A DNA stretch of 64,000 nt, from positions 1 through 64,000 of the IMG/VR virus record IMGVR_UViG_3300047564_002155; one strand, 5' to 3'. The position numbers were made by a program, and so were the translations under genes. Below are positions 4,049 to 13,748 of the stretch, piece after piece (the first letter of the stretch is position 1; each line of letters starts with the position of its first letter). Origin of the DNA: a virus. The notes beneath the pieces were generated by a model. It did no database searches. It saw only the letters and a program-made list of their open reading frames with translations, and was not told the DNA's origin.

Positions 4049-4675
4049 ATGAACAAGAATAGTAAATTTTTTACTCCTCCTCCTAAACCAACTCTTAAAG
4101 AGAGATTGGAGGATTTGAAGTACACCATCCTATTTTGGAAAGGTCGTAAGATGAAGTATATCACCACTCGTAATTTGGAATGGAGTGATATTCGTTATAT
4201 CTTCTTTCCATCCAAATTGGACAAGTATGGATACCTAAACATCACATTCTATAAGGATAATGAATTTACTAAAGCACTTATGCCGCTGGTATTAGCAATG
4301 GATTACGAAGCAAAACCTTGGTGGTGTCCTCGTTGGTTCCTACGATTCCTTCACGTTTTCGGAAACGATAAATCATTGGTTAGGGTTCGTAATCGTAGAC
4401 TACACAACCTACACCGAAAACTTACCAAAGGTATCTTATTTTGGGATTGGAAAACAAAGTGGTATGACTATGATTTGAGAATCTCCATTTCAGGTCCCGC
4501 ACACTTACACAATCTAGCAAGTTGGATTGAGAATGGATTTTACAAAAAAGGATATCAGAACGAACTGATTCAAAAAATCAAAAAGATTGACCCCAACGCT
4601 AGTACAAATATTATTAGTATAGACTATTTAGAGAAACAATTAAAGGAGTTAGAAAATGGTAAAGCGGAAGAGTAA
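4049..4675 (+). CDS. hypothetical protein
   Basis: ORF track. Confidence 0.6.
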   Translation: MNKNSKFFTPPPKPTLKERLEDLKYTILFWKGRKMKYITTRNLEWSDIRYIFFPSKLDKYGYLNITFYKDNEFTKALMPLVLAMDYEAKPWWCPRWFLRFLHVFGNDKSLVRVRNRRLHNLHRKLTKGILFWDWKTKWYDYDLRISISGPAHLHNLASWIENGFYKKGYQNELIQKIKKIDPNASTNIISIDYLEKQLKELENGKAEE

Positions 4676-10399: not shown

Positions 10400-11136
10400 A
10401 ATTAGATAAGGTATATATCATTACATTGGACCAATCGGATGAGAACCAAAAGTCTATTTTAGAAAGATTGGTTTTTATGGGTGTTCCAAATGAAACGACC
10501 TATATAATTTTTGATGGTGTAAATGGTCGTGAATTATTTTCTACCGAGCAAGGTCGTTTAGACTACGGAATTAAATTCTACGATGGTTGGAAGTTGAATG
10601 ACTCAAATGATTTTTGGAATCGTGCAGTCACAACTGGCGAAGCTGGTGGTATGTGTTCCCATATTAAAGTGTGGGAAGACGCCTATACAAATGGATATGA
10701 AAATATTTTAATTCTTGAAGATGATTACAATCCCGAGCAACCATTTCCGTGGAGTGTATGTGATGAGTTAGAAAACTACGAATACGATATTTTGTTTCTA
10801 TCAAGAAAATTACAAAGTGGTCATTACGACATTGAAATTGGATTTGATAATTTTGTAGTTCCTGGTTACTCATATCAAACACATTCTTACATAGTATCCA
10901 AATCGGGACTGAAAAAATTAGTAGAAACGCATCTACCAACTCTAAAACAAAACATAGTAGTATCGGATGAGTTTTTACCTGCAACCTATACAACACACCC
11001 ACGAGAAGACATTCGTAATATGTATCAACGAAATATCAGCGCTCTGGCTTATAGATACAACCTCATAACACAATTACGATTTGAAGCTTTAGGAAATTCA
11101 CTAACATCTCCTATTCAAGGAATAGATTATTATTAA
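10396..11136 (+). CDS. glycosyltransferase family 25
   Basis: VYIITL, DGVNG, GE.G.MCSHIKVW, ILILEDD, THSYIVS. Confidence 0.88.
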   Translation: MKLDKVYIITLDQSDENQKSILERLVFMGVPNETTYIIFDGVNGRELFSTEQGRLDYGIKFYDGWKLNDSNDFWNRAVTTGEAGGMCSHIKVWEDAYTNGYENILILEDDYNPEQPFPWSVCDELENYEYDILFLSRKLQSGHYDIEIGFDNFVVPGYSYQTHSYIVSKSGLKKLVETHLPTLKQNIVVSDEFLPATYTTHPREDIRNMYQRNISALAYRYNLITQLRFEALGNSLTSPIQGIDYY

Positions 11137-11138
11137 TT

Positions 11139-11459
11139 ATGACTGAACAAGAATTACACAAGCTATTAGAAATCCAATACCTAAAGGGTCGTTTGGATGA
11201 ACTACACAAAGCGTTTCCAACGGTGATTGATTTACATCGCTCTCGTAAATTAGATGCTCGTATTCAAAAATATTACGACAAACTCAAGAACACGGATGAA
11301 ATGGCATATCACTTATATTTGGTGGAACGACACAACCAACAAGTGTCCAAAGAAAAATCTCAAAAGCATATGAAAGACTTGTTGGAATCAATCATCCCAC
11401 AATTGGGTGATATGGAACTGATAAATAAAATTAAAAAACAAATTGAAACTTATATTTAA
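11139..11459 (+). CDS. hypothetical protein
   Basis: ORF track. Confidence 0.6.
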   Translation: MTEQELHKLLEIQYLKGRLDELHKAFPTVIDLHRSRKLDARIQKYYDKLKNTDEMAYHLYLVERHNQQVSKEKSQKHMKDLLESIIPQLGDMELINKIKKQIETYI

Positions 11460-11465
11460 ATAAAA

Positions 11466-11497
11466 TTTGGCAATATCAAATTAGTTTCGTATATTTG
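11466..11497 (+). promoter_or_regulatory. sigma-A-type promoter of tRNA cluster
   Basis: TTTG-N20-TATATTTG ending 13 nt before tRNA-Leu. Confidence 0.8.
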
Positions 11498-11510
11498 TAT
11501 CAACAAAAAT

Positions 11511-11596
11511 GCCGATGTGGTGAAATAGGTAGACACAAGGGACTTAAAATCCCTCGCTCAGTAATGAGTGTGCCGGTTCAAGTCCGGCCATCGGTA
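11511..11596 (+). tRNA. tRNA-Leu(TAA)
   Basis: cloverleaf, AGGGA-CT-TAA-AA-TCCCT, long variable arm. Confidence 0.93.
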
Positions 11597-11644
11597 CACG
11601 GAAACCCACATAGAGTTCTTTGATTTATTGGTTTTTAAAAAAAC

Positions 11645-11718
11645 GCCCCGATAGCTCAGCTGAATAGAGCAACGCACTTCTAATGCGTAGGTCGCAGGTT
11701 TGAATCCTGCTCGGGGTA
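11645..11718 (+). tRNA. tRNA-Arg(TCT)
   Basis: ACGCA-CT-TCT-AA-TGCGT; T-loop TTTGAAT. Confidence 0.92.
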
Positions 11719-11743
11719 CTCCCAGGCGTGTACAATCAACACC

Positions 11744-11770
11744 AAGGTTATGGTTGTCCTTTAACAACCA
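11744..11770 (+). ncRNA. putative H-type pseudoknot upstream of tRNA-Pro
   Basis: AAGG/CCTT + TGGTTGT/ACAACCA. Confidence 0.55.
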
Positions 11771-11773
11771 GTT

Positions 11774-11846
11774 AGGGAAGTAGCGCAGATGGTAGCGCAC
11801 CGCATTTGGGATGCGGGGGTCGCAGGTTCAAGTCCTGTCTTCCCTA
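11774..11846 (+). tRNA. tRNA-Pro(TGG)
   Basis: CCGCA-TT-TGG-GA-TGCGG. Confidence 0.92.
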
Positions 11847-11938
11847 CAAACAGTACTTACTACGCTACCCATAAGAACAGCGTCCCAGGGTAAGTCATTT
11901 ACGAGGGTAGGTAGTTGCAAATGCCTATCCTCACTTAA

Positions 11939-12021
11939 TGGAAGGTGGGTGAGTGGTTAAAACCGGCAGACTGTAACTCTGCTCCCTTACGGGTACGGCG
12001 GTTCAAATCCGTCCCTTCCAA
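11939..12021 (+). tRNA. tRNA-Tyr(GTA)
   Basis: GCAGA-CT-GTA-AC-TCTGC, variable arm. Confidence 0.9.
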
Positions 12022-12032
12022 CTAAATAATAT

Positions 12033-12104
12033 GCTCCGTTAGTGAAGAGGTTATCACACATCCCTTTCACGGATGAGTCAGGGGTTCAATTCCCCTACGG
12101 AGTA
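12033..12104 (+). tRNA. tRNA-Glu(TTC)
   Basis: CATCC-CT-TTC-AC-GGATG. Confidence 0.9.
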
Positions 12105-12145
12105 CAATGATTAAGTTTCTTTTACATACTTATTCACACAACAAC

Positions 12146-12232
12146 GGAGGTTTGGCAGAGTGGTTGAATGCGGCAGTCTTGAAAACTGTTTTACGAGAAA
12201 TTGTAACCGGGGTTCAAATCCCTGAGCCTCCG
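12146..12232 (+). tRNA. tRNA-Ser(TGA)
   Basis: GCAGT-CT-TGA-AA-ACTGT, long variable arm, G73. Confidence 0.92.
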
Positions 12233-12244
12233 CTAAAAAAAAGA

Positions 12245-12276
12245 TTTGGCAATATGAAATTTATTTCGTATATTTG
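12245..12276 (+). promoter_or_regulatory. sigma-A-type promoter
   Basis: TTTG-N20-TATATTTG. Confidence 0.8.
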
Positions 12277-12286
12277 TCAAACAATT

Positions 12287-12358
12287 GCGGAAAAAGACTT
12301 AAAAGAAAGTCGCTTATCATCCAGATAAGAGGAGTTGGGGCAGTTCCAACTTTCCGCT
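12287..12358 (+). tRNA. non-canonical tRNA-Gly(TCC)-like RNA
   Basis: GCGGAAA/TTTCCGC acceptor + T73, GACTT/AAGTC D-stem, CTTAT-CA-TCC-AG-ATAAG, GTTGG-GGCAGTT-CCAAC T-arm. Confidence 0.7.
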
Positions 12359-12416
12359 CAAACAAGGATGTGTTCTTTGTCGTTTTATGTTTAACAATTT
12401 AATGTAAAGTTTTCGT

Positions 12417-12584
12417 ATGAAGAAAATCATTGCAATGTTCGCTATCGCAGCATCAGTTGCTGCTTGTAGTGAAGCTACTGAAGAAGTAGTAGTTGAAGAA
12501 ACCACCGTAGACACTACGGCTGTTGTAGATTCTGCTGCTATTGAAGTAGAAGAAGTAGAAGGCGTAGAAGCTGCCGCTGAATAA
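12417..12584 (+). CDS. small acidic lipoprotein (55 aa; absent from ORF track)
   Basis: MKKIIAMFAIAASVAA-C-SEATEEVVVEETTVDTTAVVDSAA...; lipobox VAAC. Confidence 0.8.
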   Translation: MKKIIAMFAIAASVAACSEATEEVVVEETTVDTTAVVDSAAIEVEEVEGVEAAAE

Positions 12585-12608
12585 TATAAAGAGCTGAGTC
12601 TAGCCGAT

Positions 12609-12640
12609 GGGTTTTGATAGTTGAACCCTAATCAACTATC
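12609..12640 (+). ncRNA. putative H-type pseudoknot upstream of tRNA-Thr
   Basis: GGGT/ACCC + GATAGTTGA/TCAACTATC. Confidence 0.55.
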
Positions 12641-12644
12641 GTAA

Positions 12645-12717
12645 GCCTCCATAGCTCAGTTGGTAGAGCTACTGATTTGTAATCAGTAGGTCGCTGGTTC
12701 AAGTCCGGCTGGAGGCT
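12645..12717 (+). tRNA. tRNA-Thr(TGT)
   Basis: ACTGA-TT-TGT-AA-TCAGT. Confidence 0.93.
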
Positions 12718-12798
12718 CAAGGTATGAATTGAAGACAGTAATAAAACCGACTGCGGTGTTCTTTATGAACGAGTGTAACCGGATATTCATATCCCATT

Positions 12799-12872
12799 GG
12801 GGGTATAGCTCAGTTGGCTAGAGCATCTGCTTTGCACGCAGAGGGTCGGGGGTTCAAATCCCTCTATCTCCA
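12799..12872 (+). tRNA. tRNA-Ala(TGC)
   Basis: TCTGC-TT-TGC-AC-GCAGA; G3:U70. Confidence 0.93.
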
Positions 12873-12934
12873 CCTTGCATGCCATGCGAAGGTTTCTTTG
12901 TTCCTTGGGAAAAACAAAGTGGAGCTACAGTGGC

Positions 12935-12960
12935 GGGTTGCTGTTGTCCCACAACAACAG
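12935..12960 (+). ncRNA. putative H-type pseudoknot upstream of tRNA-Gly(GCC)
   Basis: GGG/CCC + CTGTTGT/ACAACAG. Confidence 0.55.
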
Positions 12961-12963
12961 GGT

Positions 12964-13036
12964 GCGGTAATAGCTCAGTTGGTAGAGCATAACCTTGCCA
13001 AGGTTAGGGTCGCAGGTTCAAGTCCTGTTTACCGCT
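12964..13036 (+). tRNA. tRNA-Gly(GCC)
   Basis: TAACC-TT-GCC-AA-GGTTA. Confidence 0.93.
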
Positions 13037-13156
13037 CAAGTAGACCTTTAAAAGGGCCCTTCCGTGTTACACGGCTTGTTGGGCCCGGGTCTACGACCTA
13101 ATTAAATTTTAAAATAATAATTTAATAATTATTAACCGAACGATATCACTAAATTT

Positions 13157-13228
13157 TGCCCTATCGTCTAATTGGCAGGACATCTGATTTTGGTTCAGCG
13201 AATTGAGGTTCAAATCCTTGTGGGGCAA
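13157..13228 (+). tRNA. tRNA-Gln(TTG)
   Basis: TCTGA-TT-TTG-GT-TCAGC; U1-A72. Confidence 0.9.
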
Positions 13229-13247
13229 CAAATATTTACGGAGTTAT

Positions 13248-13748
13248 ATGAAGAACCTATTAAATTGGTTTAAATTTTTACTACCTCAAAAGAAATTCAA
13301 TCCATCTATCATTGAGGATTATAAATTGATTTTTGAGCATACTGAATATAAAAAACATAGACTTTCCGGCTATACCGAATGGAAAGTTGAACGCAGCATT
13401 TTAAAATCCAATAAAGAATACAAATACGGATATTTTGAAATCCAAACTGATGGTGATGCTATTTTAGCATCAGATAGGATATTTGGTTTAAATATTTCGT
13501 TGAATAGTAATGGTTGGTTTTTCTTTTCAACTTTGGAACCTGAAATGAAGAAGGTTTGGAAACACCATAATAAAAACAAATCCGTTAAGTATGGATTGTT
13601 GTGGACTCCAAGCCGAATCATCGTTTTTATAAACGACACTATGTTATATGATACATCAGATATTGATATTGTTAAATATTATATTGAACCTATGAAGATA
13701 ATCACATCCAAAGAATGTGAATATATAAAGGTATACCAAAAAAAATGA
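13248..13748 (+). CDS. degenerate GH16/ConA-like protein
   Basis: YKYGYFEI and YGLLWTPSRIIVFIND resemble GH16 strands; no EIDIxE catalytic motif; start moved past tRNA-Gln. Confidence 0.5.
   Translation: MKNLLNWFKFLLPQKKFNPSIIEDYKLIFEHTEYKKHRLSGYTEWKVERSILKSNKEYKYGYFEIQTDGDAILASDRIFGLNISLNSNGWFFFSTLEPEMKKVWKHHNKNKSVKYGLLWTPSRIIVFINDTMLYDTSDIDIVKYYIEPMKIITSKECEYIKVYQKK

What the first reader, a model, noticed from the sequence alone, without database searches (positions are those of the whole stretch)
11744..12960. Three covarying H-type pseudoknots placed 3-4 nt upstream of tRNA 5' ends
Seen: the same architecture S1(3-4 bp)-TTN-S2(7-9 bp)-S1'-(2-3 nt ending in A)-S2' occurs three times. Before tRNA-Pro: AAGG-TTA-TGGTTGT-CCTT-TA-ACAACCA (11744-70). 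Before tRNA-Thr: GGGT-TTT-GATAGTTGA-ACCC-TAA-TCAACTATC (12609-40). Before tRNA-Gly(GCC): GGG-TTG-CTGTTGT-CCC-ACA-ACAACAG (12935-60). S1 changes compensatorily between copies, and S2 keeps a GTTG/CAAC core. Known: compact H-type pseudoknots form plant-virus tRNA-like acceptor arms and type III toxin-antitoxin antitoxin RNAs, which some phages mimic. Inference: tRNA 5' processing releases small stable RNAs capped by a 3' pseudoknot, possibly an undescribed phage ncRNA family (decoy, antitoxin mimic or nuclease block).
Basis: partly seen in the sequence, partly recalled or inferred. Interest (0 to 1): 0.75.

Follow-up and report, generated by a model that had tools for sequence, protein, structure and literature searches.

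The report
Pseudoknot caps before phage tRNAs
Three tiny RNA knots sit 3-4 bases in front of tRNA genes in a freshwater phage. They are real and conserved in many uncultured phages, absent from bacterial genomes and from the RNA family catalogue, and most likely cap the RNA end that RNase P makes when it cuts out the tRNA.

Summary
Three compact H-type pseudoknot (PK) candidates end 3, 4 and 3 nt before tRNA-Pro, tRNA-Thr and tRNA-Gly(GCC).

There are two sequence classes:
- **Class C (Pro, Gly):** RGG-UUR-nnGUUGU-CCY-nnA-ACAACnn. I found at least 13 distinct variants in IMG/VR phage tRNA arrays. All end 3-4 nt before a tRNA.
- **Class D (Thr):** GGU-UUU-9 bp-ACC-nRAA. I found 48 distinct instances: before tRNAs, before T-runs, and inside a phage tmRNA and larger ncRNAs.

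The long stem covaries strongly. The short stem keeps an invariant GG/CC core, and compensatory changes occur at its other pairs. A U.G wobble places the structure on the tRNA-sense RNA strand.

Class C next to a tRNA occurs only once among one genome each of 185,579 prokaryote species, on a 555-bp contig that is probably phage. Rfam has no match. PK-Gly is the 3' domain of a conserved ~90-nt spacer RNA, and the PK-Pro spacer is a truncated copy of it.

Best reading (about 0.45): RNase P cuts 3-4 nt downstream, so the released spacer or small mRNA ends in a knot with an overhang too short for 3' exonucleases. Antitoxin mimicry is not supported. No expression data could be obtained. Earlier notes of this scan describe other small pseudoknots beside phage tRNAs, with different sequences.

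The parts
11744..11770 (+). PK-Pro (class C): S1 11744-47 with 11758-61, L1 11748-50, S2 11751-57 with 11764-70, L3 11762-63
   Evidence: S2 hairpin -7.9 kcal/mol. The homologue in L001/L049 keeps it with a compensatory G:C to C:G change in S2.
11720..11743 (+). 5' part of the Arg-to-Pro spacer, with a conserved box at 11721-11733 that is shared with the full-length ~90-nt spacers of L088/L089
   Evidence: the same box precedes the hairpin, linker box and PK in L088/L089. The window copy lacks the middle hairpin and linker box.
11771..11847 (+). 3-nt linker (U at -1) and tRNA-Pro(UGG); no encoded CCA
12417..12584 (+). 55-aa ORF with a lipoprotein-type signal, lying between a promoter-like site and PK-Thr. 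Its mRNA would end at PK-Thr after RNase P cleavage.
   Evidence: ORF. Read from the sequence. The C-terminal end and the following conserved 12-nt block recur in L001, L042 and L055. No family hit.
12609..12640 (+). PK-Thr (class D): S1 12609-12 with 12625-28, L1 12613-15, S2 12616-24 with 12632-40, L3 12629-31
   Evidence: S2 hairpin -10.3 kcal/mol, z -2.8. L001 keeps it with two compensatory changes and one U.U mismatch. It aligns with 39 class D instances.
12641..12718 (+). 4-nt linker and tRNA-Thr(UGU)
12875..12963 (+). Ala-to-Gly spacer RNA of about 90 nt: hairpin 12896-12902 with 12913-12919, conserved linker box 12919-12934, PK-Gly, and a 3-nt linker
   Evidence: Alignment A1 of 13 variants, RNAalifold and pair counts
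12935..12960 (+). PK-Gly (class C): S1 12935-37 with 12948-50, L1 12938-40, S2 12941-47 with 12954-60, L3 12951-53
12964..13037 (+). tRNA-Gly(GCC)
11466..11497 (+). Bacteroidota-type promoter-like site (TTTG, about 20 nt, TAnnTTTG) before tRNA-Leu. Probable start of the first tRNA operon, which contains PK-Pro.
   Evidence: Read and conserved in L001. The consensus is from my own knowledge. No transcript data.
12245..12276 (+). Second copy of the same promoter-like site. Probable start of the operon holding the tRNA-like element, the ORF, PK-Thr, tRNA-Thr, tRNA-Ala, PK-Gly, tRNA-Gly and tRNA-Gln.
   Evidence: Read

Best explanation
The three elements are cis-acting RNA pseudoknots in the leaders of phage tRNAs. 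Each is a 10-13 bp quasi-continuous helix: S2 of 7-9 bp stacked on S1 of 3-4 bp, with a U-rich 3-nt loop in the deep groove of S2 and a 2-3-nt loop ending in A across S1. A 3-4 nt single-stranded linker follows, usually with U at -1, and then tRNA position +1.

Proposed mechanism:
- Host RNase P cuts at the tRNA 5' end.
- The upstream product is a spacer RNA, or the mRNA of the 55-aa ORF in the case of PK-Thr.
- That product then ends in a compact knot with a 3-4 nt overhang, too short for processive 3' exonucleases to load. It is therefore capped and stabilised.
- At the same time the knot keeps the long spacer from pairing with the tRNA.

Shown: the structure family, its covariation, its phasing to tRNA 5' ends, and the restriction of class C to phages. 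Inferred: the RNase P cut at the annotated tRNA 5' end, protection of the 3' end, and any function of the released RNAs.
For: - **Exact sequences and spacing:**
- **Phasing:** pseudoknots end at -3/-4 in 21 of 393 distinct phage tRNA upstream regions, against about 0.1 per position in shuffles.
- **Class C covariation:** 13 variants, 99.1% of cells paired against 91.5% in shuffles, covariation score 0.289 against 0.134, 0 of 500 shuffles as high. The third S1 pair is A:U in 11 and G:C in 2. The outer S2 pairs covary, and a U.G wobble marks the sense RNA strand.
- **S1 arm found without being asked for:** the scan put no constraint on the 5' arm of S1, yet all tRNA-adjacent hits carry a complementary arm exactly 3 nt before S2.
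- **Between classes:** the junction pair changes G:C to U:A while L1 stays 3 nt.
- **Class D:** S2 lengths are bimodal, 4 bp (chance) against 8-11 bp, and five S2 pairs covary.
- **Predicted RNA 3' ends:** of the class D instances, 20 of 48 are followed directly by a T-run and 7 by a tRNA. At least 27 of 48 therefore sit at a predicted RNA 3' end.
- **RNase P preference:** U at -1 in about 17 of 20 tRNA-adjacent cases. That bacterial RNase P prefers U there is my own knowledge.
- **Other long spacers in the window:** they also end in helices 5-6 nt before tRNA-Tyr and tRNA-Ala.
- **General trend:** over 308 phage spacers without this pseudoknot, the last paired base lies 4-7 nt upstream in 42% against 25% of shuffles.
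- **No encoded CCA**, so an endonucleolytic 3' cut of the upstream tRNA would free the spacer.
- **Precedent for the logic:** the MALAT1 3' end is made by RNase P at a tRNA-like structure and protected by a triple helix (PMC8457004, PMC13170383).
Against: - There is no expression or end-mapping data of any kind.
- Nothing shows that the released spacers are stable or useful.
- A structure starting at -4 should cost bacterial RNase P its protein-leader contacts (own knowledge), so the knot could equally slow processing.
- Class D also occurs inside longer RNAs, namely a phage tmRNA and a ~390-nt ncRNA, where it cannot be a 3' cap.
- The S2 core and the GG/CC of S1 are invariant, which points to specific recognition or tertiary contacts that the cap model does not need.
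- In class D, S1 shows no covariation at all.
Confidence: 0.45

Rival explanations
1. Folding insulator or processing tuner. The knot locks the 3' end of a long spacer into a closed module, so it cannot mispair with the tRNA acceptor strand. It presents a short defined leader to RNase P, either speeding or deliberately delaying 5' maturation. The released fragment itself has no role.
For: - Strict 3-4 nt phasing and U at -1.
- The pseudoknot occurs only in long spacers (35-99 nt). Tightly packed tRNAs with gaps of 2-6 nt have none.
- There is a general depletion of pairing at -1 to -2 and an enrichment of helix ends at -4 to -7 in phage tRNA spacers.
- Designed structures in 5' leaders can control RNase P cleavage in E. 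coli (PMC8925977, abstract).
Against: Any stable hairpin would insulate. This reading does not explain the invariant GUUGW/WCAAC core, the pseudoknot topology, or the T-run and tmRNA contexts of class D.
Confidence: 0.22
2. Specific recognition site. The knot, with its invariant S2 core and loops, binds a phage or host protein such as a nuclease, a modification or repair enzyme, or RNA polymerase in the manner of put-type antiterminator RNAs. Alternatively it binds another RNA, marking tRNA precursors or transcript boundaries.
For: - Five S2 pairs, GG/CC, the UU of L1 and the last A of L3 are invariant, while the outer pairs covary freely.
- When S2 was left free in the scan, every fully paired hit still had the same core.
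- Class C is restricted to phages.
Against: No partner was identified, and I made no test for a co-occurring gene. The invariant bases can equally be explained by base triples inside a compact knot. The carriers range from 32% to 56% G+C and look unrelated, so a shared dedicated phage protein is not obvious.
Confidence: 0.15
3. tRNA minihelix mimic or decoy. After RNase P cleavage, the 10-13 bp stacked helix with a 3-4 nt 3' tail imitates the acceptor/T arm of a tRNA. It would titrate tRNA-directed enzymes such as CCA-adding enzyme, 3' exonucleases or anticodon/acceptor nucleases of defence systems, or act as a type III antitoxin mimic.
For: - The topology and loop lengths match classical tRNA-like acceptor pseudoknots (comparison from my own knowledge).
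- The distance from helix end to the next tRNA equals that of an upstream tRNA in tight tandem arrays, which have gaps of 2-4 nt plus the discriminator base.
- Small pseudoknots can be RNase P substrates (PMC12710915).
Against: - There is no CCA or RCCA tail, which that paper found necessary.
- There is no further tRNA-like domain and no Rfam tRNA-like hit.
- There are no tandem repeats and no ToxN gene.
- There is only one copy per spacer, so the dose is low.
Confidence: 0.08
4. Only the S2 hairpin forms. The upstream GG and the loop CC are conserved for other reasons, or the element acts at the DNA level.
For: The GG/CC core never varies. Class D gave no S1 variants. ViennaRNA cannot score the knot, and the S2 hairpin of PK-Gly alone is no more stable than shuffles.
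Against: - Compensatory changes occur at the third and fourth S1 pairs (A:U, G:C, U:A) and at the junction pair between classes, with no broken case in class C.
- The 3-nt L1 and 2-3-nt L3 fit pseudoknot geometry.
- G.U pairs on the sense strand only argue against a DNA cruciform.
Confidence: 0.07

Closest known systems
MALAT1 / MEN-beta 3' end (ENE triple helix followed by tRNA-like mascRNA, cut by RNase P)
   Same: The logic is the same. A compact tertiary structure lies just upstream of an RNase P substrate, so the cut creates a non-polyadenylated 3' end that is already capped (PMC8457004, PMC13170383).
   Different: It is a eukaryotic nuclear lncRNA. The cap is a U.A-U triple helix that clamps an A-rich tail, not an H-type pseudoknot. 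Here the RNase P substrate is a genuine tRNA, and protection is not shown.
Acceptor-arm pseudoknot of plant-virus tRNA-like structures (TYMV type)
   Same: Classical H-type topology: a 3-4 bp G-C rich S1, no nucleotide between S2 and S1', short loops, and stacked helices about as long as an acceptor/T arm (own knowledge).
   Different: There is no CCA end, no T/anticodon-like domain and no Rfam match. It lies 5' of a real tRNA in a DNA phage rather than at the 3' end of an RNA genome.
Small stable RNAs and structured spacers of phage tRNA clusters (T4 species 1 and 2 RNAs, T5 stable RNAs; own knowledge and earlier scan notes)
   Same: They are non-tRNA structured RNAs embedded in phage tRNA operons and released by tRNA-processing enzymes. 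Their function is unknown.
   Different: Those are longer, lineage-specific RNAs. A 77-nt query from the PK-Gly spacer found only weak, partial hits (E 0.2 or worse) in cultured phages, all cyanophages and none in T4 or T5. No 26-32 nt pseudoknot phased to the RNase P site has been described for them.
tmRNA pseudoknots
   Same: They are H-type knots with S1' directly following the 5' strand of S2 and an A-rich L3. One class D instance lies inside a phage tmRNA (L234) and another inside a permuted tmRNA (L229).
   Different: The window has no tmRNA. There the knot is internal to a larger RNA, whereas here it stands alone before tRNAs.
HDV-like theta ribozymes next to phage tRNAs (PMC10879173)
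   Same: They are small pseudoknotted RNAs in phage tRNA arrays, proposed to take part in tRNA end processing.
   Different: Theta ribozymes are nested double pseudoknots of about 50-60 nt placed 3' of tRNAs to cut the trailer. The present knot has no room for the P3 and P4 hairpins that the HDV fold places between the strands of its pseudoknot, lies 5' of the tRNA, and has no Rfam ribozyme hit.
tRNA punctuation and t-elements of organelle transcripts (PMC1920247)
   Same: tRNA or tRNA-like structures define mRNA 3' ends through RNase P and RNase Z cuts. This is proposed here for the 55-aa ORF upstream of PK-Thr.
   Different: Organelle systems have no dedicated pseudoknot cap at the junction.

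Membership tests
Plant-virus tRNA-like structure (TYMV-type acceptor pseudoknot) | H-type pseudoknot with a short G-C S1 and short loops forming a stacked acceptor-like helix | tested here: met
   S1 of 3-4 bp, L1 of 3 nt, no nucleotide between S2 and S1', L3 of 2-3 nt, stacked length 10-13 bp
Plant-virus tRNA-like structure (TYMV-type acceptor pseudoknot) | 3'-terminal (A)CCA plus T-arm and anticodon-like domains; match to the Rfam tRNA-like models | tested here: not met
   The tails carry no CCA and run straight into a tRNA. No Rfam hit up to E 10 other than the true tRNAs.
Type III toxin-antitoxin antitoxin RNA (ToxI-like) | Tandem array of about 34-36 nt repeats | tested here: not met
   Tandem Repeats Finder finds no such array in 11400-13300. 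The three copies lie 865 and 326 nt apart and differ in sequence.
Type III toxin-antitoxin antitoxin RNA (ToxI-like) | Adjacent ToxN/AbiQ-type endoribonuclease gene | tested here: not met
   No PF13958 match in the 168-kb genome. The control genomes also gave no match, so the test is weak. Neighbouring ORFs are a methyltransferase, a glycosyltransferase and CobT/CobS-like proteins.
HDV-like / theta ribozyme | Nested double pseudoknot (P1, P1.1, P2, P3, P4) with the cleavage site at its 5' end, directly 3' of a tRNA | tested here: not met
   Only 5-7 nt lie between the S2 strands, leaving no room for P3, the 3' strand of P1 and P4. The element is phased to the downstream tRNA, not the upstream one. 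No Rfam ribozyme hit. Self-cleavage was not assayed.
tmRNA | tRNA-like domain plus tag reading frame | tested here: not met
   ARAGORN (which also searches for tmRNA) and Rfam find none in the window. Only the class D module recurs inside a phage tmRNA elsewhere.
RNase P-generated, structure-capped 3' end (MALAT1 type) | Compact structure immediately upstream of an RNase P substrate | tested here: met
   The knot ends 3-4 nt before tRNA +1 in the window and in 21 of 393 distinct phage tRNA upstream regions from the fetched loci
RNase P-generated, structure-capped 3' end (MALAT1 type) | A U-rich clamp forms a triple helix with an A-rich 3' tail; the capped RNA accumulates | not testable with these tools
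   No A-rich tail is present, so it is not an ENE. Accumulation needs RNA data, and none could be laid.
Exoribonuclease-resistant RNA (xrRNA / coremin-like) | Blocks a 5'-to-3' exonuclease and so protects the downstream RNA | not tested
   This came as a lead from an earlier scan note on a different motif. Here the downstream RNA is a tRNA whose 5' end is made by RNase P, so such protection is not needed.

The most novel reading that the evidence does not exclude
Phage tRNA arrays double as factories for small pseudoknot-capped RNAs. RNase P, together with a 3' endonuclease acting on the upstream CCA-less tRNA, releases spacer RNAs such as the conserved ~90-nt hairpin-box-knot RNA. Their invariant knot makes them long-lived effectors, for example decoys for host 3' exonucleases or tRNA-directed defence nucleases. 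This would be a viral, bacterial-world counterpart of the MALAT1 ENE-mascRNA arrangement.
Probability: 0.18. Interest if true: 0.8.

Novelty: new variant of a known kind. Interest (0 to 1): 0.6.

Why it matters
Phage tRNA arrays are usually annotated as tRNAs separated by meaningless spacers. Here the spacers carry a sequence-conserved, covarying pseudoknot locked in register with the RNase P site. It is found across phages of very different base composition, and in its tRNA-linked form it is found next to a tRNA only once among one genome each of 185,579 prokaryote species.

If the knot caps RNase P-made 3' ends, it would be a new way for bacterial viruses to stabilise mRNAs and small RNAs without terminators. 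It would also be a compact natural part for RNA engineering.

Several other notes of this scan report different small knots beside phage tRNAs. Together they suggest a general, undescribed layer of RNA-processing signals in phages.

Tried and rejected
- **Rfam:** E-value mode over 11000-13600 gave only tRNAs and noise, including a wcaG hit at 19 bits. Gathering-mode scans of 13 related loci gave no family for the knot.
- **RNA evidence:** the phage is held by freshwater and estuary metagenome runs, but all are kept as contigs.
- **Cultured phages:** BLAST of the PK-Gly spacer and of a class D module against 50,697 phage records gave nothing useful, so no cultured model was identified. The whole array matched only through its tRNAs.
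- **HDV-like/theta ribozyme, hammerhead and other ribozymes:** rejected on topology and the absence of Rfam hits.
- **Type III antitoxin mimic:** rejected.
- **Riboswitch-like knots (preQ1-I, SAM-II types):** considered from memory and dropped. The loop and tail arrangement differs and there is no regulated gene downstream.
- **Pairing of the conserved linker box with the spacer 5' end or with the upstream tRNA 3' end:** 4-bp matches in some copies, no covariation, not predicted by RNAalifold.
- **S1 covariation in class D:** a scan leaving both S1 arms free found only GGU/ACC, so it was not informative.
- **Class C copies away from tRNAs (L099, L092, L122, L139):** about four among roughly 55 chance matches, which is what chance completion predicts. 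I do not count them as members.
- **AT-only knot-like pattern at 13109-13134:** low complexity and not conserved in form in L001, so treated as chance.
- **Earlier scan findings by sequence:** no shared sequence with this element.
Full report
**Setting.** The window is the first 64 kb of a 168,128-bp virus record with 36.9% G+C. It encodes CobT/CobS-like proteins, a methyltransferase and a glycosyltransferase around the locus. All ten of its tRNA genes lie at 11511-13229 on the + strand. None encodes CCA.

Two near-identical promoter-like sites of the Bacteroidota type (TTTG, about 20 nt, TAnnTTTG; consensus from my own knowledge) lie at 11466-11497 and 12245-12276. They probably split the array into two operons. 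Near-identical DNA is held by freshwater, lake and estuary metagenome runs.

**Observation.** The three elements read exactly as reported, and they end 3, 4 and 3 nt before tRNA-Pro, tRNA-Thr and tRNA-Gly(GCC).

A strict scan of both strands of the whole genome finds the bare architecture 10 times, against 4.45 expected from shuffles. The pattern alone is therefore not remarkable. However, the only + strand hits are these three and an AT-only one, all within the tRNA array. The S2 hairpins alone fold at -7.9, -10.3 and -7.9 kcal/mol. ViennaRNA cannot score the knot.

**Relatives.**
- *Closest relative.* Loci found through the neighbouring CobT-like protein showed one relative with 93% protein identity (three identical contigs, L001-L003). 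It keeps PK-Pro with a compensatory G:C to C:G change, and PK-Thr with two compensatory changes and one U.U mismatch. It lacks PK-Gly.
- *More distant relatives.* Those at 57% identity or less have tRNA arrays but no such knot.
- *Scan without S1 constraint.* An IMG/VR pattern scan that fixed only the S2 core, the loop CC and a downstream tRNA D-stem motif, leaving the 5' arm of S1 free, returned several further arrays. In every tRNA-adjacent hit a complementary 3-4 nt arm lies exactly 3 nt before S2.
- *Scans without a tRNA requirement.* These enlarged the set further.
- *Phasing.* Over 393 distinct tRNA upstream regions, knots end at -3 (15) and -4 (6), against about 0.1 per position in shuffles. 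U occupies -1 in about 17 of 20 cases.

**Two classes.**

*Class C* (PK-Pro, PK-Gly) has the form RGG-UUR-nnGUUGU-CCY-nnA-ACAACnn.
- At least 13 distinct variants precede tRNA-Pro (most often), tRNA-Tyr, tRNA-Val or tRNA-Gly. They lie in contigs of 34-42% G+C, and a looser form occurs in 55% G+C contigs.
- The few complete copies away from tRNAs are about as many as chance completion of the pattern predicts.
- Among one genome each of 185,579 prokaryote species, class C next to a tRNA occurs once. It is on a 555-bp contig binned with a Schleiferiaceae MAG, and the contig looks like phage DNA. The other eight hits are chance matches.

*Class D* (PK-Thr) has the form GGU-UUU-9 bp-ACC-nRAA.
- The stem lengths of its pattern hits are bimodal, at 4 bp (chance) and 8-11 bp.
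- Of the 48 distinct real instances, 7 lie within 6 nt of a tRNA, 20 are followed directly by a T-run like a terminator hairpin, and 21 lie elsewhere.
- The instances elsewhere include one inside a phage tmRNA, one inside a permuted tmRNA, one inside a ~390-nt non-coding region, and some just before ribosome-binding sites.
- Many class D copies are preceded by a conserved hairpin and TAAA. The window copy is not.

**Structure support.**
- *Class C alignment (A1, 13 sequences).* 99.1% of cells pair, against 91.5% in shuffles. The covariation score is 0.289 against 0.134, and 0 of 500 shuffles reach it. All slid controls collapse.
- *S2.* It varies only at its two outer pairs, always compensated. 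One U.G pair would be a mismatch on the other strand, which places the structure on the tRNA-sense RNA.
- *S1.* Two pairs are invariant G:C. The third pair is A:U in 11 sequences and G:C in 2, with no broken case. A fourth pair appears as A:U, U:A or G:C in single lineages.
- *Between the classes.* The junction pair changes from G:C to U:A while L1 stays 3 nt.
- *Class D.* Five S2 pairs covary richly (the sequences had been selected for at least 8 of 9 pairs). S1 never varies, even in a scan that left it free.
- *Conclusion.* The hairpin is beyond doubt. The knot is well supported for class C and rests mainly on conservation and geometry for class D.

**A longer RNA.** PK-Gly is the 3' domain of a conserved ~90-nt spacer. 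The spacer consists of a 5' box, a hairpin with three covarying pairs (12896-12902 with 12913-12919), a nearly invariant 16-nt linker box (12919-12934) and the knot. The same spacer precedes tRNA-Pro, tRNA-Tyr or tRNA-Val in other phages, so it is a module that moves among tRNAs. The PK-Pro spacer keeps one of the two alternative 5' boxes and the knot, but lacks the middle part.

**Mechanism.** The knot stands in fixed register with the RNase P site. The linker is the few unpaired nucleotides that RNase P needs, and U at -1 is the preferred leader base (own knowledge). The upstream tRNAs lack CCA and are probably cut endonucleolytically. The spacer would therefore be released as a fragment whose 3' end is the knot plus 3-4 nt.

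- In the case of PK-Thr, the fragment would be the mRNA of a conserved 55-aa lipoprotein-like ORF.
- At least 27 of 48 class D copies also sit at a predicted RNA 3' end (a tRNA or a T-run).
- The other long spacers of the window end in helices 5-6 nt before tRNA-Tyr and tRNA-Ala.
- Phage tRNA spacers in general avoid pairing at -1 to -2 and favour helix ends at -4 to -7: 42% against 25% in shuffles.

I therefore favour a 3'-end cap coupled to RNase P, with insulation of tRNA folding as a by-product. My confidence is about 0.45. The logic parallels the MALAT1 ENE-mascRNA arrangement (PMC8457004, PMC13170383) and organelle tRNA punctuation (PMC1920247).

The rivals are:
- a pure folding or processing tuner (PMC8925977 shows that leader structure can control RNase P);
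- a specific binding site, which the invariant core favours;
- a minihelix decoy. PMC12710915 shows small knots can be RNase P substrates but need a 3' RCCA, which is absent here;
- hairpin only.

Nothing here measures RNA, so every functional step is inference.

**Known families.** There is no Rfam match. The element is not a type III antitoxin. It is not an HDV-like or theta ribozyme, on topology and position (PMC10879173). It is not a tmRNA. It resembles a TYMV-type tRNA-like structure in knot topology only.

Earlier notes of this scan describe other small knots beside phage tRNAs and at phage gene boundaries. Sequence look-ups found no overlap with this motif, so they are parallel cases and not independent support.

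**Verdict.** This is a real, phage-restricted, uncatalogued pseudoknot family phased to tRNA 5' ends. The structure is well supported and the function is inferred. I rate it a new variant of a known kind (structured spacers of phage tRNA clusters, and structure-capped RNase P-made ends), with interest 0.6.

Noticed in passing
window 12287-12358: tRNA-like cloverleaf about 10 nt downstream of the second promoter-like site. ARAGORN and Rfam do not call it. A homologous copy lies directly 5' of tRNA-Gly(GCC) in L001 (about 4456-4512). An earlier first-reader note, e1-5633187, reads it as a non-canonical tRNA-Gly(UCC).
   Followed up: partly
window 12719-12798: The Thr-to-Ala spacer folds into a closed multi-branch structure whose closing stem ends 5 nt before tRNA-Ala (MFE -16.3 kcal/mol, z -1.4). 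It may be a degenerate tRNA or another spacer RNA.
   Followed up: partly
window 11848-11938 and 13038-13095: The Pro-to-Tyr spacer forms two strong hairpins (z -3.7), the second ending 6 nt before tRNA-Tyr. A very stable nested hairpin domain starts 2 nt after tRNA-Gly (z -3.6) and is conserved after tRNA-Gly in L001.
   Followed up: partly
window 13109-13134: AT-only sequence that fits the strict pseudoknot pattern 22 nt before tRNA-Gln. It is low complexity (tandem 8-11 nt units) and probably chance.
   Followed up: partly
L234 10640-11190 (-), L234 9188-9591 (-), L229 658-939 (+): These are uncultured phage contigs. L234 carries a tmRNA with a 153-nt insertion that contains a class D knot, and a GOLLD RNA followed directly by a tRNA. 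L229 carries a permuted tmRNA that also contains a class D knot.
   Followed up: partly
L195 9970-10360: A ~390-nt ORF-free, terminator-ended region with several hairpins and an internal class D knot. It recurs in L145, L168, L218, L223, L232 and L235. There is no Rfam hit at E up to 1. It looks like an undescribed larger phage ncRNA.
   Followed up: partly
L006 3125-3149, L007 2714-2738, L012 3336-3360, L021 3584-3608 and 3802-3826, L030 3491-3515 and 3688-3712: A recurrent pseudoknot-pattern motif (GAA, 5 nt, 6-bp stem, TTC, CA, stem) with covarying stems lies downstream of the tRNA arrays of distant CobT-bearing relatives. Its context was not examined.
   Followed up: no
window 12543-12570: A 9-nt tandem repeat (3.1 copies) inside the 55-aa ORF, encoding an acidic Glu/Val-rich tail.
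   Followed up: no
genome 81.7-88.9 kb (outside the window), - strand: Many copies of a short repeated unit typical of a collagen-like (Gly-X-Y) coding repeat, probably in a fibre gene. Seen in the output of the hairpin scan.
   Followed up: no
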